Below, piece by piece: positions 4,817-57,315 of a stretch of 64,000 nt of DNA (position 1 is its first letter; each line of letters begins with the position of its first letter). The notes beneath the pieces were generated by a model. It was not told the DNA's origin. It saw only the letters and a list, made by a program, of their open reading frames with translations, and did not search any database. This DNA is from Duganella fentianensis (GTDB taxonomy: Bacteria; Pseudomonadota; Gammaproteobacteria; Burkholderiales; Burkholderiaceae_D). Both the position numbers and the translations under genes were made by a program. The stretch covers positions 19,090 to 83,089 of the forward strand of contig NZ_CAXIQN010000022.1 of assembly GCF_964031615.1 (NCBI RefSeq), in the 5' to 3' direction.

Positions 4817-4965
4817 TTTAAAGCGTCAGGTGACACATGCATGCTGAGCGAGCAAGAACAGCAAGCAGATCAGACTGGTAGGCAGGCACGCATGCAGACG
4901 AGTCAGTCAGTAGGCGAGTTGGAGGGCAGTGGTAGGCGGGGCGGGTATTCTCTTTCTTTAATTTT

Positions 4966-5101
4966 GTCTATTTCGGTCTAAAACGGGCGGTTCCGGTCTA
5001 AATCAGTCCAGAAGTAGTAGAGTTTCCGAGATTTGAGACTAAAATCGCGCTTTATTACATTTCTTTAGACCTTTTTAGACTCTTCTCGGAAATTTTTAGA
5101 C
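4966..5101. repeat. Phased GTCTA/TAGAC array, left cluster
   Basis: GTCTA at 4966, 4976, 4996 (variants GTCCA 5006, GACTA 5037); inverted TAGAC at 5066, 5076, 5097; spacings 10/20/21/31. Confidence 0.9.
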
Positions 5102-5575
5102 TGTTCCCGCTAGCGCCTCCTTAGTCATCAAGCGCTGTTGCTGGTTTAGTTCGAGGCGTGAGCGGTATTGATCGGCGCGGACCCAGTAGTCATCGCCAGG
5201 CAGTCGCAGCCATACAAAGCGCCATGCATTGCGTGCGCTGGCTTGCCGGTTGGTGAACTGGGATGGCGTCAGCGATTGTCCATCTTCGGCAATGATTTGC
5301 TCGCCGACTACGATGGCAAATTCCACCTTATTGCGATGGCTAGTACGCAGCTGGGTGCCGGCAGGCAGAAAGACATTTTTCCACTGAAATCCATGCAGCG
5401 CTTGCCCGTTCTTACGGGCAACAAGCCGTTCCTTATCCAGTGTCAGCCAGCGATGCAGCAGTTCCTGAATAAAAGCCTCCGGCTGGATGTCAGGCCGCGT
5501 TACCAGCAGATGCAGTTCGAGATCGAGATAGATATCGTAAGGCAGATAGATAGCCTGTTTCGCCACATAAGTCAT
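5096..5575 (-). CDS. Hypothetical protein, putative RHH-like N-terminus plus RAMA/DUF4357-like C-terminus
   Basis: GGAGG 8 nt before ATG; 159 aa; GFQWKNVFLPAGTQLR and TPSQF...RNAW motifs; domain call is inference. Confidence 0.75.
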   Translation of the reverse strand: MTYVAKQAIYLPYDIYLDLELHLLVTRPDIQPEAFIQELLHRWLTLDKERLVARKNGQALHGFQWKNVFLPAGTQLRTSHRNKVEFAIVVGEQIIAEDGQSLTPSQFTNRQASARNAWRFVWLRLPGDDYWVRADQYRSRLELNQQQRLMTKEALAGTV

Positions 5576-5596: not shown

Positions 5597-5733
5597 GTCT
5601 AAAAGTTGGACAGACGAATCAAAAACTAGTTCGTTTTAGACTTTTTGAGGAAATTTCTAGACCGATTTAGACCGCAACTTCCCAGTTCTAGATCGGATTA
5701 GACTCAAACAGACCTAATTAGACTGAATTAGAC
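5597..5733. repeat. Phased TAGAC array, right cluster (upstream of the 159-aa gene)
   Basis: GTCTA 5597; TAGAC 5637, 5658, 5668, 5699, 5719, 5729; variants CAGAC 5611 and 5709, TAGAT 5689; spacings 10 or 21 from 5637 on. Confidence 0.92.
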
Positions 5734-5789
5734 TGTAGTTTTGTTTGGCAATCCCGGCACAGGTGGTCTTGCCTCATGCGGCTAGCGTA

Positions 5790-9029: not shown

Positions 9030-9332
9030 TTACTCGATCACTTTCGGCACCAGATACAGGCCATCCTGGGTTTTCGGTGCCACCACCTGATAGTCGTCGC
9101 GGCGATTCGGCTCGCTGGCCACGTCTTCGCGCAGGCGCAGGGCGATGTTATTCATGTGCGCGGCCAGCGGGTGGCTGAGCGGTGCGACGCCGTCGGTGTC
9201 GACCGCCTGCATCTGCTCGGCCAGCGCGAAAATGCCATTGAGTTGTTCCAGCGCGGTGGCGGATTGCGCCTCGTTCATTTCAAGCTGGGCCAGTTTGGCA
9301 ATGCGGGTTACGTCGGATAAGGTCAGAGACAT
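9030..9332 (-). CDS. gatC: Asp/Glu-tRNA amidotransferase subunit C
   Basis: IAKLAQL..., LRED, LVPKVIE; position before gatA. Confidence 0.95.
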
Positions 9333-9358
9333 GGCAAATGGCGCGGTCTAGCCGCGCA
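9333..9358 (-). promoter_or_regulatory. Putative cis-regulatory leader element shared with argS
   Basis: mRNA UGCGCGGCUAGACCGC-GCCAUUUGCC-AUG; 16-mer identical to 25417-25432, same 10-nt spacing. Confidence 0.6.
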
Positions 9359-9598
9359 GGTTGTGTTATTTTAATGATAAAAATCCGCGGCCCTGGTCCG
9401 CAGGTGGATAAATTACGGACAAAAGCACGGAACAGCCGCCCAAACAGCGGCTTTCACCGATACACTTTAGGGTGGATATTCGGCAAATCGCAGTCAAATT
9501 ATAAGGTAGAATGGCGGGTTGATGCGTTGTCGGCGCTGAATCATTGCTGCCGCCGCTACAAGACAGGATTTCTTTCTAACGGATTACGCGCACATTAG

Positions 9599-10751: not shown

Positions 10752-12113
10752 ATGGAATACAGTCCTCCGCCACTTTTCAAGCAAGGTGCTCCGGCCCGGG
10801 TGAAGATGATGGTGTTTGCGTGCATCTCGATTGCACTGCTGCTGGCCGACTCGCGCGTGCGTACCCTGCAGACCGTGCGCAAGGTTGCCGGCACCATGCT
10901 GTACCCATTGCAGATGGCGGCCCTGATGCCGCGCGACGCTATCTATGGCGTCGGTGATTATTTCTCCTCGCTGTCCGCGCTGGAAAAACAGGTGCGCGAA
11001 CTGAAACGCCAGCAGATTGCCAGCGCCTTGCTGCTGCAGCAGGCGCAGCAGCGCGTAGCGGAAAACAACCAGCTGCGCCGCCTGATCGACGCGCGCGAAC
11101 ATCTGCCCATCAAATCCATGCTGGCAGAAATCCTGTACGACGCGCGCGACGTCAACAGCCGCAAAATCATCCTCGACCGTGGTAGCCAGCAAGGGCTGGT
11201 ACTGGGCCTGCCCGTGATCGACCATCAGGGCGTGGTAGGGCAGGTGACGCGGGTATTTCCCTTCACCTCCGAAGTCACCCTGCTGACCGACAAGGAACAG
11301 GCGATCCCCGTCCAGCTGCTGCGCAACGGCTTGCGCAGCGTAGCCTACGGACGTGGCAAAGCGGGTACGCTGGAACTGCGTTTCACGGCGCCTAACGCGG
11401 ATATCCAGGTGGGCGACATCGTCGTCACCTCGGGTCTGGACGGGGTATATCCGGCCGGTCTGGCAGTGGCGCGCGTGACCCAGGTGGAAAACAGCGCAGC
11501 CGGCTCCTTCGGCGGCGTGATCTGCCAGCCGCTGGGCGGGATTTCGAATAACACCCAGCTGCTGGTGCTGCTGTCGCTGCCGGACATGCCACCCCGTCCG
11601 CCTGACGAAGAACAACGCCAGCTGCGCAAACACAATAACAAGATGGCGCCGATCAAGGATGCGCCCAAGGAGCCCGATGCTGCAGCTGCTGCGGCTGCCG
11701 CCGCCGCGCCAGTCGCTGCCGCTGGTGCTGCCGCCGCGCCAGCCGCAGCCGCTCCCGCTGGCGGCGCCGCCACTCCCACAGCCGCCGGCACGCCGCCAGC
11801 CGCTGCGGCGGGCAATGCTGCTACGCCTGTTGCCAACAATGCTGCCCCCGGCCTCATGCCGGTGATGCCGGCGGCACGTCCGGCAGCGGTCCCCACCGGC
11901 GTGACGGAAACCGCCACTCCGGCCGCTGGCGCCGCGCTGACAGGCGCGCCACCGGGAGCACGACCTGCCGCCGCTGGCGCAGCGACCGCGCCGCACGCCA
12001 CACCGGCTGCGCCCCATGCTGCAGCGGCCGCGCCGCGCGCCGCTGCACCTGCACCTGCACCTGCACCTGCACCTGCACCTGAACGCGCCAAAGCCAAGGA
12101 GCCAGTACGATGA
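10752..12113 (+). CDS. mreC: MreC with long Ala/Pro-rich C-terminal tail
   Basis: TM, coiled coil, IILDRGS..G, GDIVVTSGLDGVYPAGL; operon position. Confidence 0.95.
   Translation: MEYSPPPLFKQGAPARVKMMVFACISIALLLADSRVRTLQTVRKVAGTMLYPLQMAALMPRDAIYGVGDYFSSLSALEKQVRELKRQQIASALLLQQAQQRVAENNQLRRLIDAREHLPIKSMLAEILYDARDVNSRKIILDRGSQQGLVLGLPVIDHQGVVGQVTRVFPFTSEVTLLTDKEQAIPVQLLRNGLRSVAYGRGKAGTLELRFTAPNADIQVGDIVVTSGLDGVYPAGLAVARVTQVENSAAGSFGGVICQPLGGISNNTQLLVLLSLPDMPPRPPDEEQRQLRKHNNKMAPIKDAPKEPDAAAAAAAAAAPVAAAGAAAAPAAAAPAGGAATPTAAGTPPAAAAGNAATPVANNAAPGLMPVMPAARPAAVPTGVTETATPAAGAALTGAPPGARPAAAGAATAPHATPAAPHAAAAAPRAAAPAPAPAPAPAPERAKAKEPVR
12045..12080 (+). repeat. (GCACCT)x6 in-frame tandem repeat encoding (AP)6
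   Basis: Six perfect hexamer copies read directly. Confidence 0.95.
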
Positions 12114-12637: not shown

Positions 12638-14620
12638 ATGACTGAGCTCAAGGACAATCAGCGCGAACTCTACCAGTTCCGCCTGCGCCTGACGGTGCTG
12701 GGCGGGCTGGTGTTCATCTGTTTCGGCCTGCTGCTGGCCCGCTTCATCTGGCTGCAAGTCTACAAGCACAGCGACTATGTGGCGCAGGCGGAAGAGAACC
12801 GCATCGCCATCGTCCCGATCGAACCGAATCGCGGCCTGATCCTCGACCGCAACGGCGTCATCCTGGCGCGCAACTACTCGGCCTTCACGCTGGAGATCAC
12901 CCCGTCCAAGCTGAATGCCACGCTGGACGAAACCATCGACGAGCTGTCCAAGCTGATCACCATCGAAACCAAGGATCGCAAGCACTTCAAGAAGCTGCTG
13001 GAAGAATCGCGCGGCTTCGAGAGCGTGCCGCTGCGTAACCGCCTGACGGACGAAGAAGTGGCCCGCTTTACGGCGCAGCGCTTCCGCTTCCCCGGCGTAG
13101 AAGTGCAGGCGCGTCTGTTCCGCCAGTATCCGCTCGGTGAAATCGCTTCCCACGTGATCGGCTTCATTGGCCGCATCAACCAGTCCGAAGCCAAACTGAT
13201 CGCCCAGATGGACGATGCCGCCAACTACAACGGCACCGACCATATCGGCAAGGAAGGGCTGGAAAAAAGCTACGAGAAGCAGCTGCACGGCATCACCGGC
13301 TACGAGGAAGTGGAAAAATCGGCCGGCGGGCGCGCCATCCGCACCCTGTCGCGTACCCCCGCCACGCCGGGCAGCAATCTGATCCTGTCGATCGATATCG
13401 AATTGCAGAAAGTGATCGAAGAAGCCTTTGGCGAATGGCGCGGCGCGCTGGTGGCGATCGAACCGGCCACGGGCGACATCCTGGCCTATGTTTCGCGCCC
13501 CGGCTACGACCCCAATCTGTTCGTCGACGGCATCGACAGCCAGAGCTGGAACGAACTGAATAATTCGCTCGACCGTCCCATGGTGAACCGCCCCCTGTCC
13601 GGCGCCTATCCGCCCGGTTCCACCTTCAAGCCCTTCATGGCACTGGCGGCGCTGGAGCTGCACAAGCGCACCCCCAGTCAGGCCATCTACGACCCCGGCT
13701 CGTTCACGCTGGGCGGCCACAAATTCCGCGACGATAAACCGGGTGGCCATGGCACGGTGGATATGTACAAAGCCATCGTCGAATCCTGCGATACCTATTT
13801 CTACATTCTCGGCAACGAGATGGGCATAGACGCCATCCACGATTTCATGAAGCCGTTCGGCTTCGGCCAGATCACCGGCATCGATCTCGAACACGAGAAG
13901 CAGGGCGTGCTGCCGTCCAAAGAATGGAAGGCTAACCGCTTCAAGAAAAATCCGGCGGCGCAGAAATGGGTGGGCGGCGACACGATTTCCATCGCCATCG
14001 GTAACGGCTATAACAACTACACGCCGCTGCAGCTGGCGCACGCGGTCGCCAATCTGGCCAACAACGGCGTGGTGATGAAGCCCCATCTGGTGAAGATTAT
14101 CGAAGACAGCGCTACCCGTACGCGCAAGCTGACGGTGCCCAAGGAAAGCTACCGTATTCCGCTCAAGCAGGAAAATATCGACATCATTAAAAATGCCATG
14201 GTGGGCGTGACCCTGAGCGGCACGGCGGCGCGCGCATTTGCCGGCGCCGGCTATACTTCGGGCGGCAAGACCGGTACGGCGCAGCTGATCGCCATCAAAA
14301 AGAACGAGAAGTACAACGCCAATCTGATCGCCGAACGGCTGCGCGACAATGCGCTCTACACGGCGTTCGCACCGGCCGACAATCCCCGCATCGCGATTGC
14401 CGTGGTGGTGGAGAATGGCGGCTTCGGTGCTGGCGTGGCGGCACCCATCGTGCGCAAGGCGCTCGATTACTACCTGCTGGGCAAACGCCCGCATGAAAAA
14501 GAAACCACTGCCGTACCGCGCGAGGACGCCGAGCTGCGTTCCGTGCAGGACGTGCAGGCCGAGCAAGGCCTGAGCGACGAAAAACGTCCCGGCGCCGAGA
14601 CCCCCGGCAACAAGGAATAA
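12638..14620 (+). CDS. mrdA: Penicillin-binding protein 2, copy 1
   Basis: STFK, SCD, KTG motifs; PNRGLILDRNG. Confidence 0.95.
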   Translation: MTELKDNQRELYQFRLRLTVLGGLVFICFGLLLARFIWLQVYKHSDYVAQAEENRIAIVPIEPNRGLILDRNGVILARNYSAFTLEITPSKLNATLDETIDELSKLITIETKDRKHFKKLLEESRGFESVPLRNRLTDEEVARFTAQRFRFPGVEVQARLFRQYPLGEIASHVIGFIGRINQSEAKLIAQMDDAANYNGTDHIGKEGLEKSYEKQLHGITGYEEVEKSAGGRAIRTLSRTPATPGSNLILSIDIELQKVIEEAFGEWRGALVAIEPATGDILAYVSRPGYDPNLFVDGIDSQSWNELNNSLDRPMVNRPLSGAYPPGSTFKPFMALAALELHKRTPSQAIYDPGSFTLGGHKFRDDKPGGHGTVDMYKAIVESCDTYFYILGNEMGIDAIHDFMKPFGFGQITGIDLEHEKQGVLPSKEWKANRFKKNPAAQKWVGGDTISIAIGNGYNNYTPLQLAHAVANLANNGVVMKPHLVKIIEDSATRTRKLTVPKESYRIPLKQENIDIIKNAMVGVTLSGTAARAFAGAGYTSGGKTGTAQLIAIKKNEKYNANLIAERLRDNALYTAFAPADNPRIAIAVVVENGGFGAGVAAPIVRKALDYYLLGKRPHEKETTAVPREDAELRSVQDVQAEQGLSDEKRPGAETPGNKE

Positions 14621-15763: not shown

Positions 15764-17812
15764 ATGATAGAGATGAAGGACACCGAGCGCGAGCTCGCGC
15801 AGTTCCGCGTCCGCATTACCGTGCTGGGCGCGCTGGTGCTACTGTGTTTCGGCCTGCTGCTGTTACGCTTGTTGTGGCTGCAGGTGATCAAGCACGACGA
15901 ATTTGCCACCAAGGCCGATGAAAACCGTATCGCCCTGGTGCCCATCGTGCCTAGCCGCGGCCTGATCCTGGACCGCAACGGCGTGGTTTTAGCGCGTAAC
16001 TATTCGGCCTTCACGCTGGAGATCACCCCGTCCAAACTGGCCGCGCCGCTGGATGAAGTGATCGACCAGCTGGCCCAGCTGGTGACGGTAGAACTCAAAG
16101 ACCGCAAGCGCTTCCGCAAGCTGCTGGAAGAGTCCAAGAATTTCGAAAGCGTGCCGCTGCGCAACCGCCTGTCCGACGAAGAAGTGGCGCGCTTCACGGC
16201 ACAGCGTTTCCGCTTCCCCGGGGTGGAAGTGCAAGCCCGCTTGTTCCGCCAGTACCCGCTGGGAGAAACGGCTTCGCACGTGATCGGCTACATCGGCCGC
16301 ATCAACCGGGCCGAAGCCAAAGCGCTGGAAGAGGGCGAGGACAGTGCCAACTACAACGGCTCCGACTACATCGGCAAGGAAGGGCTGGAGAAAAGCTACG
16401 AAAAACATCTGCACGGGATGACCGGCTACGAGGAAGTGGAAGTGACTTCGCGCGGACGCGCCATCCGCACGCTGTCGCGCAAGCCGGCCGTGGCGGGCAG
16501 TAATCTGATCCTGTCGATCGATATCGAACTGCAGAAAGTGGTGGAAGAAGCGTTTGGCGAACGGCGTGGCGCGCTGGTGGCGATCGAACCATCGACCGGC
16601 GACATTCTGGCCTATGTCTCGCGGCCCGGCTACGACCCCAATCTATTCGTCGACGGCATCGACACGGCCAGCTGGAACGAATTGAATAACTCGCTCGACC
16701 GGCCCATGGTGAACCGCCCCCTGTCCGGCACCTATGCGCCCGGCTCCACCTTCAAACCTTTCATGGCGCTGGCCGCGCTGGAACTGGGTAAGCGCACGCC
16801 GACGCAGACCACGCCCGATCCCGGCTTCTACTACCTCGGTGGCCACAAGTTCAACGACGATCTGGTGGGCGGCCACGGCGCGGTAGATATGCGCAAGTCC
16901 ATCATCGTCTCGTGCAATACCTATTACTACGTGCTGGGGCATGACATGGGCATAGACATGATCCATGACTTCATGAAACCGTTCGGCTTCGGCCAGCTGA
17001 CCGGCATCGATCTGGAAAACGAAAAGACCGGCGTGCTGCCATCGCAGGAATGGAAGCGCAAGCGCTTCAAAGGTGCAGCCGGCAAGTGGGTGGGCGGCGA
17101 CACCATCTCGGTCAGCAACGGTTCCGGCTACAACGCCTATACCCCGCTGCAGATCGCTCACGCCGTGGCCAACCTGTCCAACGATGGTGTGGTGATGAAG
17201 CCCCATCTGGTCAAGATTATCGAGCACGGCGCCACCCGCACCCGCTCGCTGACGGTGCCCAAGGAGAGTTATCGCATCCCGCTCAAGCAGGAGAATATCG
17301 ACTTCATCAAGAGCGCCATGGTGGGCGTCACCAGCGAAGCGGGCGGCACCGGCTTCCGCGCCTTTAGCGGTGCCGGCTACACGGTGGGCGGCAAGACCGG
17401 CACGGCGCAGGTGATCACGATTAAATCGGGCGACAAATACAATGCCGCCAAGCTGGCCGAACGCCTGCGCGATAATGCGCTGTTCACGGCCTTCGCGCCG
17501 GCCGACAAACCCCGTATCGCACTGGCACTGGTGGTTGAAAATGCCGGTAAAGGCGGGCTGGAAGCGGCACCGATTGCGCGTAAAGCGATAGACTATTATT
17601 TGCTGGGCAAACGTCCGGCAGAAAAAGATACCACCAAAGTGGCGCGTGAAGATGCCGTGGCAGTGGTGCCGGTGGAAGGCGAGCTGCTGGAACAGCAGGC
17701 CGCAGCGGCCGAGCAGGAGCGCCAGTCGGCGCAGCCTGTCGCATCGCCGGCACCAGCGTCGCCTGCGCCCGCAGCGGCAGCAGGCGCGGCGCCGGCCCGA
17801 AAAAAACCGTAA
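15764..17812 (+). CDS. mrdA: Penicillin-binding protein 2, copy 2
   Basis: Colinear paralogue of 12638-14620; STFK, SCN, KTG motifs. Confidence 0.93.
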   Translation: MIEMKDTERELAQFRVRITVLGALVLLCFGLLLLRLLWLQVIKHDEFATKADENRIALVPIVPSRGLILDRNGVVLARNYSAFTLEITPSKLAAPLDEVIDQLAQLVTVELKDRKRFRKLLEESKNFESVPLRNRLSDEEVARFTAQRFRFPGVEVQARLFRQYPLGETASHVIGYIGRINRAEAKALEEGEDSANYNGSDYIGKEGLEKSYEKHLHGMTGYEEVEVTSRGRAIRTLSRKPAVAGSNLILSIDIELQKVVEEAFGERRGALVAIEPSTGDILAYVSRPGYDPNLFVDGIDTASWNELNNSLDRPMVNRPLSGTYAPGSTFKPFMALAALELGKRTPTQTTPDPGFYYLGGHKFNDDLVGGHGAVDMRKSIIVSCNTYYYVLGHDMGIDMIHDFMKPFGFGQLTGIDLENEKTGVLPSQEWKRKRFKGAAGKWVGGDTISVSNGSGYNAYTPLQIAHAVANLSNDGVVMKPHLVKIIEHGATRTRSLTVPKESYRIPLKQENIDFIKSAMVGVTSEAGGTGFRAFSGAGYTVGGKTGTAQVITIKSGDKYNAAKLAERLRDNALFTAFAPADKPRIALALVVENAGKGGLEAAPIARKAIDYYLLGKRPAEKDTTKVAREDAVAVVPVEGELLEQQAAAAEQERQSAQPVASPAPASPAPAAAAGAAPARKKP

Positions 17813-23696: not shown

Positions 23697-25406
23697 TTAC
23701 ATCTTGTTCGGGGCCGAAACACCGATCAGTGCCAGACCGTTGCGCAGTACCTGACGAGTGGCCACCATCAGCGCGATACGGGCCGCTTTCAGCGCTTCGT
23801 CGTCCACCAGCACGCGCTCGGCGAAGTAGAAGCTATGCAGGTTGGCGGCCAGATCGCGCAGGTAGAAGGCGATCTGGTGCGGGCCCAGTTCGGCCTGGGC
23901 ACGGGCCAGCGTTTCCGGATAGGCGGCCAGCGTGGCCAGCAGGGCTGCTTCGGTCGGCGCCGTCAGTGGCGACAGATCGACATTGGCCAGTTCCGCTTCG
24001 TTGCCGGTCCATTGTTCCAGCATGCGGCAGATACGGGCGTGGGCGTACTGCACGTAGTACACGGGATTTTCGTCCGACGTTTTCAGCGCTACGTCGACGT
24101 CGAAGACGAACTCGGTATCGGCTTTACGCGAGATCAGGAAGAAGCGCACGGCATCGCGGCCTTTGGCGATATCGCCGCCACCCGACCATTCGATCAGATC
24201 GCGCACGGTGACGTAGGAACCGGCGCGCTTGGAAATCTTGACTTCCTCGCCGCCCTTCATCACGGTGACCATCTTGTGCAGCACGTAGTCAGGGAAGCCT
24301 TGCGGAATGCCCACGTTGACGGCCTGCAGACCGGCGCGCACACGGGCGATGGTGCCGTGGTGGTCGGAACCCTGCACGTTGATGGCCTGAGTAAAGCCGC
24401 GCTGGAATTTGACGATGTGGTAGGCCACGTCCGGCACGAAGTAGGTGTAGGTGCCATCCTTCTTGCGCATCACGCGGTTCTTGTCGTCGCCGTAGTCTTC
24501 CGTTTTCAGCCACAGCGCGCCTTCTTCTTCGTAGGTCTTGCCGGACTTGTTGAGCATGTCCACAGCCGCATCGACCTTGCCATCCGAGTACAGCGAGGAT
24601 TCGAGGTAGTAGTTATCGAACTTCACGCCGAAAGCCTGCAGGTCGATATCCTGCTCGTTACGCAGATAGGTCACGGCGAACTGGCGGATCGAATCGATGT
24701 CTTCCACCTCGCCGGACGCCGTGGCCGGTGCGCCGTCGGAAGCGGAGACGGTTTTCTTCTGCATGAAGTCAGCCGCGATATCGGCGATGTAGTCGCCGTT
24801 ATAGGCCGATTCCGGCCATGCTGCGTCGCCCGGTTTCAGGCCGCGCAGACGCGCCTGCACCGAGTTGGCCAGCGTCTGGATCTGCACGCCCGCGTCGTTG
24901 TAGTAGAACTCGCGGGTCACATCATAGCCTTGCGACTGGAACAGCGACGACAGCGCATCGCCCAGTGCAGCCTGACGGCCGTGGCCCACGTGCAGCGGGC
25001 CGGTCGGGTTGGCCGAAACGAATTCGATGATGACTTTTTTACCGGCACCGGCCGCTGCGCTGCCGAAAGTGGCGCCTTGTGCCAGCACGGCCTTGACCAC
25101 GGCCTGCTTGGCCGCTGCACTGACGCGCAGATTGATGAAGCCGGGGCCGGCGATATCGGCCGATTCCACCAGACCCTGGGCAGCCGGATTGGCCAGCAGC
25201 GCGTCTACCACCTTGGTGGCTAGCTCGCGCGGGTTCATTTTCAGCTGTTTAGCCAGCTGCATGGCGATATTGCAGGCGACGTCGCCGTGCGAAGGGTCGC
25301 GCGGGCGTTCCAGCACCACATTGGCAACCACTTCGGTGCCGGCCAGCAGAGGGGCCAGAGCGGACTGGAACAGGGCGGAGATATCTTGTTTTTGTTGGGC
25401 GAGCAT
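23697..25406 (-). CDS. argS: Arginine--tRNA ligase
   Basis: [35 protein letters not shown]; ATG at 25406. Confidence 0.98.
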
Positions 25407-25432
25407 GGGCAATAGGGCGGTCTAGCCGCGCA
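25407..25432 (-). promoter_or_regulatory. Putative cis-regulatory leader element shared with gatC
   Basis: mRNA UGCGCGGCUAGACCGC-CCUAUUGCCC-AUG; upstream TATAAT on minus strand near 25498-25503. Confidence 0.6.
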
Positions 25433-25692
25433 ATAGGTCGGGTTGGTCTATCCAGAAGCGAAAACGGCCGGTACGCTGGCACCGGCCAAACAGCGGTAAT
25501 TATACTGGTTTGCCGACGGTGGGTCACCGCAGCGAACCCGGCGCGGCGCCGCGCTGCCGCCCCGTTGGCACTGCAACAGCATCGCCACGGCAGAGTCACT
25601 ACTGTATACTGCGCGATTACTTGGTGATTTGTGTGTTTCCGCTGCCCCAGACCTGCAGCCACACTCGCGCCGGCCCACTCTGGAATTAGCAT

Positions 25693-57208: not shown

Positions 57209-57214
57209 AACCCC

Positions 57215-57310
57215 GGGGTCAGGTCGGGCAAAGTGTCGGTGTCAGGTCGGGCAAAGTGACAGGCTCGACCATACGACTGCCGAGTCTGTCACTTTGCCCG
57301 ACCTGACCCC
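57215..57310. repeat. REP/REPIN-like element, three units (two direct, one inverted)
   Basis: GGGGTCAGGTCGGGCAAAGTG (57215-35), GTCAGGTCGGGCAAAGTGACAG (57241-62), CTGTCACTTTGCCCGACCTGACCCC (57286-310); between convergent genes. Confidence 0.8.
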
Positions 57311-57315
57311 GACTT

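What the first reader, a model, noticed from the sequence alone, without database searches (positions are those of the whole stretch)
9330..9358. Identical 16-mer exactly 10 nt before the AUG of gatC and argS
Seen: GCGGTCTAGCCGCGCA occurs at 9343-9358 and 25417-25432. The mRNAs read UGCGCGGCUAGACCGC-GCCAUUUGCC-AUG (gatC) and UGCGCGGCUAGACCGC-CCUAUUGCCC-AUG (argS). Spacing is the same, the spacers match at 6/10, and neither has a clear SD. It can fold as a GCGG/CCGC stem (6 bp in gatC) with a CUAGA loop. Both genes encode tRNA-charging enzymes 16 kb apart and are not homologous. Inference: a shared translation-initiation element or a regulon operator for aminoacylation genes. I do not recognise it as a named Rfam family. 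Its core also contains TAGAC, so a link to the array protein is possible but speculative.
Basis: partly seen in the sequence, partly recalled or inferred. Interest (0 to 1): 0.75.

Follow-up and report, generated by a model that had tools for sequence, protein, structure and literature searches.

The report
Shared leader hairpin at gatC, argS
Two unrelated tRNA-charging genes of a Duganella-type freshwater bacterium carry the same short GC-rich hairpin just before their start codons; the hairpin is real and inherited, but only its stem is conserved in relatives, so it looks like a small accessory leader element rather than a dedicated shared switch.

Summary
TGCGCGGCTAGACCGC sits on the minus strand exactly 10 nt before the ATG of gatC (9343-9358) and of argS (25417-25432). 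Among 1128 pairs of gene-upstream 60-mers in the window it is the clear outlier: 16 nt shared, against 10 for the next-best pair.

The organism is a Duganella/Pseudoduganella (Oxalobacteraceae). Orthologous leaders show a vertically inherited stem-loop, GCGCGG-N5(6)-CCGC(G/C)C, ending 8-10 nt before a start codon without a Shine-Dalgarno sequence.
- At gatC it is present in Duganella, Janthinobacterium and Massilia.
- At argS it is present in a Duganella/Janthinobacterium subset.
- The stem bases never vary. The loop varies freely: CTAGA, CTCGA, CCCGT, CCTGC, CCAGC, CTTTCC, TTCAG, CCCAG, CCCCG.
- The hairpin was lost independently at argS in several lineages and at gatC in one.

The exact 16/16 identity exists only in the window strain and P. 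danionis. The closest sister group has 15/16. The argS stem is only 4 bp and is no more stable than shuffled sequence. Rfam gives no match, the window holds no further copies, and nothing supports a link to the TAGAC array.

Most likely this is a cis-acting leader RNA hairpin that tunes translation initiation. That is inferred, not shown. A shared trans-acting factor is not excluded.

The parts
9343..9358 (-). 16-mer copy 1 (TGCGCGGCTAGACCGC), in the gatC leader
9341..9357 (-). gatC leader hairpin: 6-bp stem GCGCGG/CCGCGC, loop CUAGA, -11.1 kcal/mol
   Evidence: The stem is invariant in Duganella, Janthinobacterium and Massilia gatC leaders.
9333..9340 (-). 8-nt pyrimidine-rich spacer (CAUUUGCC) between the stem and the gatC AUG; no SD
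   Evidence: The same 8-nt spacing is seen in four other gatC lineages and 9 nt in M. endophytica.
9030..9332 (-). gatC (100 aa), first gene of gatCAB
25417..25432 (-). 16-mer copy 2, in the argS leader
25417..25429 (-). argS leader hairpin: 4-bp stem GCGG/CCGC, loop CUAGA, -5.6 kcal/mol. A conserved C-C mismatch blocks a fifth pair.
25407..25416 (-). 10-nt spacer (CCUAUUGCCC) before the argS AUG; no SD
23697..25406 (-). argS (569 aa from the ATG at 25406)
25499..25504 (-). argS promoter -10 box TATAAT (GTGACC-17-TATAAT). It is conserved in argS leaders across the family, which places the hairpin about 70 nt inside the transcript.
25455..25488 (-). Terminator-like hairpin plus U-run at the 5' end of the argS leader. 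A compensatory change is seen in relatives (GGCCGG..CCGGCC versus GACCGG..CCGGTC).
25486..25496 (-). Second shared block, CCGCTGTTTGG, argS copy. This block is ancestral at argS.
9440..9450 (-). Second shared block, CCGCTGTTTGG, gatC copy. It forms the 5' arm plus loop of leader hairpin 1 and is present only in the window / P. danionis / D. fentianensis lineage.
9498..9503 (-). TATAAT inside a 35-nt block that is invariant in seven Oxalobacteraceae species. It is the probable gatC -10 box and would place the hairpin about 140 nt inside the transcript.
   Evidence: The role as a promoter is inferred; the simple promoter scan found no -35 partner.
9375..9403 (-). gatC leader hairpin 2 followed by a T-run (terminator-like). 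The stem sequence differs in close relatives; the T-run is conserved.

Best explanation
The 16-mer is the core of a short GC-rich stem-loop, GCGCGG-N5-CCGC(G/C)C, in the transcribed leaders of gatCAB and argS. It ends 8-10 nt upstream of start codons that lack a Shine-Dalgarno sequence.

Shown:
- Each hairpin is inherited vertically at its own locus within Oxalobacteraceae.
- The stem bases are under strong constraint and the loop is free to vary.
- The element is dispensable, because it has been lost independently at each gene.
- The perfect 16/16 identity is specific to the window / P. danionis lineage and sits on top of an older 10-13/16 similarity.

Inferred: the hairpin acts in cis at the RNA level on translation initiation. 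A compact helix sits where an SD:anti-SD helix would normally lie. It either docks on the 30S platform or holds GC-rich leader sequence away from the open, pyrimidine-rich start region. In this way it would set, rather than switch, the initiation rate of two SD-less genes. I consider the shared sequence to reflect common constraints plus chance, not a proven common regulator.
For: - Position in the transcript: the hairpin lies downstream of conserved -10 boxes. For argS this is TATAAT at 25499-25504; for gatC it is TATAAT at 9498-9503 inside an invariant block.
- Conservation of the stem: GCGCGG and CCGCGCC are invariant in six independent gatC lineages, while the loop reads CTAGA, CTTTCC, CCCGT, CCTGC or CCAGC and the surrounding leader is about 69% identical. 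At argS, CGCGG and CCGCC are invariant with loops CTAGA, CTCGA, TTCAG, CCCAG, CCCCG and CTCGCC.
- Loop length is 5 or 6 nt. An RNA loop tolerates this; a dimeric DNA operator does not easily.
- Distance from the stem to the ATG is constant: 8 nt at gatC in five lineages, and 9-10 nt after CCGC[GC] at both genes.
- The gatC hairpin is stable and folds better than shuffles.
- No Rfam family matches.
- No further copies were found in the window or in 391 kb of related loci.
Against: - There is no covariation. The four inner pairs never vary and the fifth is a conserved C-C mismatch at argS. Structure is therefore not demonstrated, and the conserved unpaired bases hint at sequence-specific recognition.
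- The argS hairpin is only 4 bp and no better than shuffled sequence.
- Transcription start sites are not mapped. The RNA contigs available were uninformative.
- Relatives translate argS from about 30-nt leaders with no hairpin at all. gatC in the CP051684 group also lacks the hairpin. Any effect on initiation must therefore be modest.
- The mechanism rests on general knowledge of structured mRNAs on the 30S platform, not on a test done here.
Confidence: 0.45

Rival explanations
1. Shared operator of a small regulon. One trans-acting factor, either an RNA-binding or DNA-binding protein or an sRNA, recognises GCGCGG-N5-CCGC at both genes and coordinates gatCAB and argS expression with the tRNA-charging status of the cell.
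For: - The same half-sites sit at the same distance from the ATG at two functionally related, non-homologous genes in at least three genomes from two genera.
- The stem bases are invariant without any G-U or compensatory change, and the conserved bases include unpaired ones at argS. This fits sequence-specific recognition.
- In the window lineage a second block, CCGCTGTTTGG, is also shared by the two leaders.
- Loops at the two genes resemble each other within a genome: CTAGA/CTAGA, CTAGA/CTCGA, CCCGT/CCCCG.
Against: - Only two genes carry the motif in everything that could be searched.
- The hairpin was lost independently: argS lacks it while gatC keeps it in L238 and M. endophytica, and gatC lacks it in the CP051684 group.
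- Loop sequence and length vary.
- The element lies about 70 and 140 nt downstream of the conserved -10 boxes, which is atypical for a transcriptional operator.
- No candidate factor was identified.
- The within-genome loop similarity is affected by ascertainment, because the window was picked for the identity.
Confidence: 0.2
2. The element has no specific function. Two GC-rich mini-palindromes in GC-rich leaders resemble each other by chance and composition. The exact identity arose by one or a few substitutions, or by a short templated exchange between the two leaders 16 kb apart.
For: - The sister group (D4 MAG, L209) has 15/16, so a single C-to-A change in the argS loop creates the identity.
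- Outgroups are only 10-11/16 identical.
- Short exact repeats between unrelated places are common in the window.
- The argS hairpin is energetically unremarkable.
- The element is dispensable in several lineages.
Against: - Thirteen stem positions are invariant at gatC across three genera, while the loop and flanks diverge. Neutral evolution does not predict this.
- The offset to the ATG is the same in both genes and across lineages.
- No shuffle out of 2000 gives a 16-mer, and the pair is the outlier among 1128 upstream pairs.
Confidence: 0.17
3. The 5'-terminal or processing-site variant. The hairpin marks the mature 5' end of the mRNA, produced by a proximal promoter or by RNase processing, and protects the transcript from 5'-end-dependent decay.
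For: - At gatC, a conserved A/T-rich segment with -10-like hexamers lies 2-10 nt upstream of the hairpin: TAAAAT, TATAAC, TGTAAC, TACAAT, and TATAAT in J. fluminis.
- In L132 the argS hairpin lies about 20 nt after the TATAAT box.
Against: - No matching -35 element was found, and the promoter scan found nothing at gatC.
- At argS in the window the conserved promoter is about 95 nt upstream, and no -10-like hexamer precedes the hairpin.
Confidence: 0.1
4. The element is a dispersed repeat or mobile element (REP/MITE-like), or a binding site for the protein encoded next to the TAGAC arrays.
For: The loop plus 3' arm, TAGACCGC, also occurs in the TAGAC(C/T) array at 5666-5675.
Against: - The window holds only two copies.
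- The copies sit at orthologous positions in several genera, so they were inherited and not recently inserted.
- TAGAC is absent from most orthologous loops.
- The array island is not present at that site in P. danionis, which has both hairpins.
- The 119 exact 16-mer hits across GTDB genomes are single hits in unrelated taxa, apart from three gatC orthologues.
Confidence: 0.04

Closest known systems
E. coli thrS translational operator (threonyl-tRNA synthetase autoregulation)
   Same: A stem-loop directly upstream of the start region of an aminoacyl-tRNA synthetase gene, in a position to act on 30S binding. (What is known of thrS is from my own knowledge.)
   Different: The thrS operator mimics the tRNA-Thr anticodon arm with a conserved loop, is a larger multi-domain structure, and works alongside an SD. 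Here the loop varies freely, the stem is 4-6 bp, there is no SD, and no binding by the gene product has been shown.
Structured 5' leaders that dock on the 30S platform (rpsO pseudoknot; rpsA leader hairpins that replace a strong SD)
   Same: A folded element occupies the region where the SD helix normally sits, at a fixed distance from the AUG, on an mRNA without a canonical SD. (From my own knowledge.)
   Different: Those elements are larger and experimentally characterised. This one is a single mini-hairpin with no functional data, and it is absent from many orthologues.
T-box leaders of aminoacyl-tRNA synthetase and gatCAB operons in Firmicutes
   Same: A cis-acting leader RNA upstream of tRNA-charging genes, including both aaRS and gatCAB operons. 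The argS leader also carries a terminator-like hairpin.
   Different: There is no match to the Rfam T-box model or to any other family. There is no specifier loop or T-box sequence, the element is about 16 nt rather than about 200 nt, and the host is a betaproteobacterium.
5' stem-loop mRNA stabilisers (for example the ompA leader hairpin)
   Same: A short GC-rich hairpin in a 5' UTR. At gatC it could lie at the very 5' end if a proximal promoter exists.
   Different: This requires a 5'-terminal position. That has not been shown, and it is unlikely for argS, where the conserved promoter is about 95 nt upstream.
REP / BIME-type extragenic palindromes
   Same: A short GC-rich imperfect palindrome in an intergenic region.
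   Different: REPs are present in tens to hundreds of copies, mostly at 3' ends. Here there are two copies, both at fixed offsets before start codons and both orthologously conserved.

Membership tests
T-box leader (Rfam RF00230) or any other Rfam family | Match to the family covariance model (sequence plus structure) | tested here: not met
   No hit at gathering score over the whole window. E-value scans of both leaders up to E = 10 gave nothing relevant.
thrS-type translational operator (tRNA mimic) | Stem-loop adjacent to the translation start of an aaRS gene | tested here: met
   The hairpin ends 8-10 nt before the ATG of argS and of gatC.
thrS-type translational operator (tRNA mimic) | Loop sequence that mimics the cognate anticodon loop and is conserved among orthologues | tested here: not met
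   argS loops are CTAGA, CTCGA, TTCAG, CCCAG, CCCCG and CTCGCC. gatC loops are CTAGA, CTTTCC, CCCGT, CCTGC and CCAGC.
thrS-type translational operator (tRNA mimic) | Binding and repression by the gene's own product | not testable with these tools
   This needs a biochemical or reporter assay.
Conserved cis-regulatory RNA structure | Base pairs supported by compensatory changes | tested here: inconclusive
   The four inner pairs never vary. One outer pair shows a single U-A. The fifth pair is C-C in all argS copies. 138 of 500 shuffles reach the observed covariation score. The consensus fold of 12 gatC leaders keeps the helix without covariation.
Conserved cis-regulatory RNA structure | Presence in orthologous leaders beyond close relatives | tested here: met
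   gatC: Duganella groups, J. fluminis and M. endophytica. argS: window, P. danionis, D4 MAG, D. caerulea, L130, L132 and J. fluminis, but absent in L126-L129, L131, L238 and M. endophytica.
Regulon operator shared by aminoacylation genes | The same motif before several functionally linked genes, gained and lost together | tested here: inconclusive
   Only gatC and argS carry it in the 64-kb window plus 391 kb of related loci, and losses at the two genes are independent.
Palindromic operator of a dimeric transcription factor | Fixed spacing between half-sites, and a site that overlaps or abuts the promoter | tested here: not met
   The spacer is 5 nt in most lineages but 6 nt in the Duganella sp. 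3397 group and in L132. The sites lie about 70 nt (argS) and about 140 nt (gatC) downstream of the conserved -10 boxes.
Intrinsic terminator / attenuator | GC-rich hairpin followed by a U-run on the transcribed strand | tested here: not met
   On the mRNA strand the hairpin is followed by CAUUUGCC or CUAUUGCCC and then AUG. The scan flags the gatC palindrome only on the opposite strand, and nothing at argS.
Dispersed repeat (REP/MITE-like) | Many copies per genome at variable positions relative to genes | tested here: not met
   There are two copies in 64 kb, with no near matches above shuffle expectation. Copies in other genera are orthologous. The genome-wide count is untested.

The most novel reading that the evidence does not exclude
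GCGCGG-N5-CCGC(G/C)C placed 8-10 nt before the AUG could be an unrecognised RNA operator of Oxalobacteraceae. In this reading one trans-acting factor reads it to co-regulate arginyl-tRNA synthetase and the Glu/Asp-tRNA amidotransferase. The loops and a second leader block, CCGCTGTTTGG, would co-evolve between the two leaders within each lineage.
Probability: 0.12. Interest if true: 0.65.

Novelty: new member of a known kind. Interest (0 to 1): 0.35.

Why it matters
If the hairpin has a function, it would be a compact leader element not catalogued in Rfam that sets translation of two SD-less tRNA-charging genes in a betaproteobacterial family. Little is known in that group about how aminoacyl-tRNA synthetase and gatCAB expression is controlled, and there are no T-boxes. 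It also offers a simple natural test case for how a helix at the SD position affects SD-independent initiation, because natural variants with and without the hairpin exist in close relatives. As it stands the element is small, lineage-restricted and dispensable. The striking exact identity that drew attention is not the conserved feature.

Tried and rejected
- Genome-contig scan with the exact 16-mer. Only L018, L046 and L101 were true gatC orthologues.
- Laying isolate and metagenome contigs on a 61-nt stretch around the hairpin, hoping that partial matches would reveal other genomic copies. Only the gatC contig was laid, so the method cannot see 16-nt matches.
- Metatranscriptome contigs for transcription start sites. 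The contigs span the whole divergent intergenic region or are low-depth fragments, so they are uninformative.
- Rfam at gathering score and at E-value thresholds. Nothing was found.
- Codon or anticodon mimicry in the loop. AGA and CGA Arg codons occur in the window and D4 argS loops, but other argS loops read CAG or CCG and gatC shares the same loop. Rejected.
- An upstream ORF or N-terminal extension through the hairpin. The window loop has an in-frame TAG, and the start positions match homologues. Rejected.
- A terminator on the opposite strand. It is flagged only at gatC and not at argS. Rejected as a shared function.
- A link to the TAGAC array protein. Rejected.
- Pairing gatC and argS leaders from D. 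violaceipulchra. The locus ended 114 nt short of the argS start.
- A covariance model of the hairpin. I did not build one: the stems are invariant, so it would have been only a sequence profile, and the pattern scan already covers that.

Full report
**1. The observation**

The + strand carries GCGGTCTAGCCGCGCA at 9343-9358 and at 25417-25432, and nowhere else. The nearest other matches have 3 mismatches, which is what shuffles give. Read on the - strand, both copies are TGCGCGGCTAGACCGC followed by 10 nt and ATG.

The downstream ORFs are GatC (100 aa, first gene of gatCAB, divergent from mreBCD) and arginyl-tRNA synthetase (569 aa).

Exact 15-17-mers shared by unrelated places are frequent in this 62% GC window, so the repeat alone proves little. 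Its placement does:
- Among 1128 pairs of 60-nt segments upstream of called genes, this pair shares 16 nt at the same offset. The next best pairs share 10 nt at any offset and 7 nt at the same offset.
- None of 2000 dinucleotide shuffles of the two intergenic regions gave a 16-mer.

**2. What folds**

The gatC copy forms a 6-bp all-GC stem with a CUAGA loop (-11.1 kcal/mol, z = -2.4). The argS copy forms only GCGG/CCGC (-5.6 kcal/mol, z = -0.35) and drops out of the minimum-energy fold in a 60-124 nt context. No Rfam family matches either leader, even at E = 10.

**3. Organism and orthologous leaders**

ArgS, GatC and PBP2 homologues name the source as Duganella/Pseudoduganella, family Oxalobacteraceae. 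Identical DNA occurs in lake-water metagenomes.

I collected gatC and argS leaders from relatives in four ways:
- The three true orthologues among the 16-mer hits.
- A metagenome scan with the ArgS N-terminus.
- Look-ups of ArgS and GatC homologues.
- Look-ups of the PBP2 gene that lies between the two loci, with 10-kb flanks. These returned both leaders from one genome.

**4. Result at gatC**

| Lineage | Sequence before the ATG |
|---|---|
| Window, D4 MAG, D. fentianensis, P. danionis | TGCGCGG-CTAGA-CCGCGCC-atttgcc-ATG |
| Duganella sp. 3397 group | GCGCGG-CTTTCC-CCGCGCC-ctacgcc-ATG |
| D. violaceipulchra group and J. fluminis | GCGCGG-CCCGT-CCGCGCC-attcgcc-ATG |
| L238 | GCGCGG-CCTGC-CCGCGCC-ttacgcc-ATG |
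| M. endophytica | GCGCGG-CCAGC-CCGCGCC-cccaagcc-ATG |
| CP051684 group | Hairpin missing (..ttaaCCGCGCC-ATG) |

The 13 stem positions are invariant. The loop is free, and the rest of the leader is about 69% identical.

**5. Result at argS**

| Lineage | Sequence |
|---|---|
| Window and P. danionis | GCGCGG-CTAGA-CCGCC |
| D4 MAG / L209 (ArgS 96% identical) | CTCGA loop, i.e. 15/16 to the gatC motif |
| D. caerulea | CGCGG-TTCAG-CCGCC |
| L130 | GCGCGG-CCCAG-CCGCC |
| J. fluminis | GCGCGG-CCCCG-CCGCC |
| L132 | CGCGG-CTCGCC-CCGCC |
| L126-L129, L131, L238, M. endophytica | No hairpin |

In the last group two leaders are only about 30 nt long.

The exact identity therefore exists only in the window / P. 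danionis lineage. These two share about 92% nucleotide identity overall.

A scan of 391 kb of these loci for CGCGG-N4-6-CCGC[GC] found 10 matches with an ATG 9-10 nt downstream. All 10 are gatC or argS orthologues.

**6. Transcript context**

A TATAAT box about 95 nt upstream of argS is conserved throughout the family. It is followed immediately by a terminator-like hairpin plus U-run that shows a compensatory change.

At gatC, a 35-nt block invariant in seven species carries back-to-back TATAAT (gatC sense) and TAGAAT (mreB sense) boxes about 170 nt upstream of the ATG.

If these are the promoters, both hairpins lie inside the 5' UTRs. Start sites could not be mapped with the RNA data available.

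**7. Structure or sequence?**

Pair counts show no informative covariation. The four inner pairs never vary, the fifth is C-G in all gatC copies and C-C in all argS copies, and one outer U-A occurs in D. caerulea. The consensus fold of 12 gatC leaders keeps the helix without covariation.

Three features favour an RNA hairpin over a dimeric DNA operator:
- Loop length varies between 5 and 6 nt.
- The sites lie far downstream of the -10 boxes.
- The distance to the ATG is constant.

The invariance of the stem bases, and of unpaired bases at argS, leaves room for sequence-specific recognition.

**8. SD-lessness and the TAGAC idea**

Twenty-two of 49 crude gene calls in the window have no SD-like 4-mer, and no argS or gatC orthologue shows an evident one. 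The missing SD is therefore not special to the hairpin.

The TAGAC(C/T) arrays flank an ORF without any family match, in a lower-GC island between a hydrolase gene and gatB. That island is not at this site in P. danionis, which keeps both hairpins. Most orthologous loops lack TAGAC. The proposed link is not supported.

**9. Interpretation**

The best-supported reading is a small accessory leader hairpin, inherited at each locus, that acts in cis on translation initiation of SD-less starts. This is inferred from position, constant spacing and stem conservation.

A shared trans-acting factor remains possible:
- The two genes carry the same half-sites in two genera.
- In the window lineage a second block, CCGCTGTTTGG, is also shared. 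It is ancestral at argS but lineage-specific at gatC.

That convergence is unexplained. The window was selected for the identity, so ascertainment limits what the convergence proves. Independent losses at each gene argue against an obligatory common regulon.

**10. Verdict**

- The element is a new, minor member of the class of cis-acting leader hairpins.
- Interest is moderate to low unless a binding factor or a wider regulon is found.

Noticed in passing
window 4950-5110 and 5600-5740, flanking ORF 5096-5575 (-): Arrays of about 6-9 TTAGAC(C/T) units, some inverted as GGTCTAA, lie on both sides of a 159-aa ORF. The ORF has no Pfam, PHROGs or NCBIfam match. The arrays sit in a lower-GC (about 55%) island between a hydrolase gene and gatB. 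The island is not at this site in P. danionis, J. fluminis or M. endophytica. It looks like an iteron- or transposon-end-like arrangement around an unknown DNA-binding protein.
   Followed up: partly
window 25455-25504 (-): The argS leader starts with a conserved TATAAT box. Within about 10 nt comes a 10-bp GC hairpin plus U-run that looks like a terminator. The stem sequence differs between relatives but pairing is kept (GGCCGG..CCGGCC versus GACCGG..CCGGTC in L238). This could be an attenuator or a 5' stabiliser of argS in the Duganella/Janthinobacterium clade. It is absent in L128 and M. endophytica.
   Followed up: partly
window about 9495-9530 (mreB-gatC intergenic): A 35-nt block, CAACGCATCAACCCGCCATTCTACCTTATAATTTGA, is invariant in seven Oxalobacteraceae species. 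It has back-to-back -10-like boxes, TATAAT in the gatC sense and TAGAAT in the mreB sense, and is probably a divergent promoter core. The gatC leader downstream of it is about 170 nt long and contains two more hairpins.
   Followed up: partly
window 9360-9384 (-): The segment TTT(T/G)TCA(T/A)TA..AACA, just upstream of the gatC hairpin, is conserved from Duganella to Massilia and Janthinobacterium. It has no convincing -35/-10 pairing. Its role is unknown.
   Followed up: no
window 12638-14620 and 15764-17812 (+): There are two penicillin-binding protein 2 (mrdA) paralogues in one mreBCD-mrdA-rodA cluster, about 79% identical at the DNA level. Relatives (D. violaceipulchra, L238) also have a second rodA, whereas J. 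fluminis and M. endophytica have a single mrdA-rodA pair.
   Followed up: partly
window 57214-57311: A 23-nt unit, CGGGGTCAGGTCGGGCAAAGTGT, is repeated twice in tandem and once inverted about 30 nt further on. It lies between the topoisomerase gene and the M1-peptidase-domain gene.
   Followed up: no
window 12043-12081 and 11679-11803: A perfect CTGCAC x6.5 tandem repeat and GC-rich 18-36-nt repeats lie at the 3' end of mreC, giving a low-complexity C-terminal tail. Its length differs among relatives: MreC is 355-453 aa.
   Followed up: no
window 9408-9416 (-): TTATCCACC, which differs from the DnaA-box consensus at one position, lies in an 11-nt insertion of the gatC leader. The insertion is specific to the window / P. 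danionis / D. fentianensis lineage.
   Followed up: no
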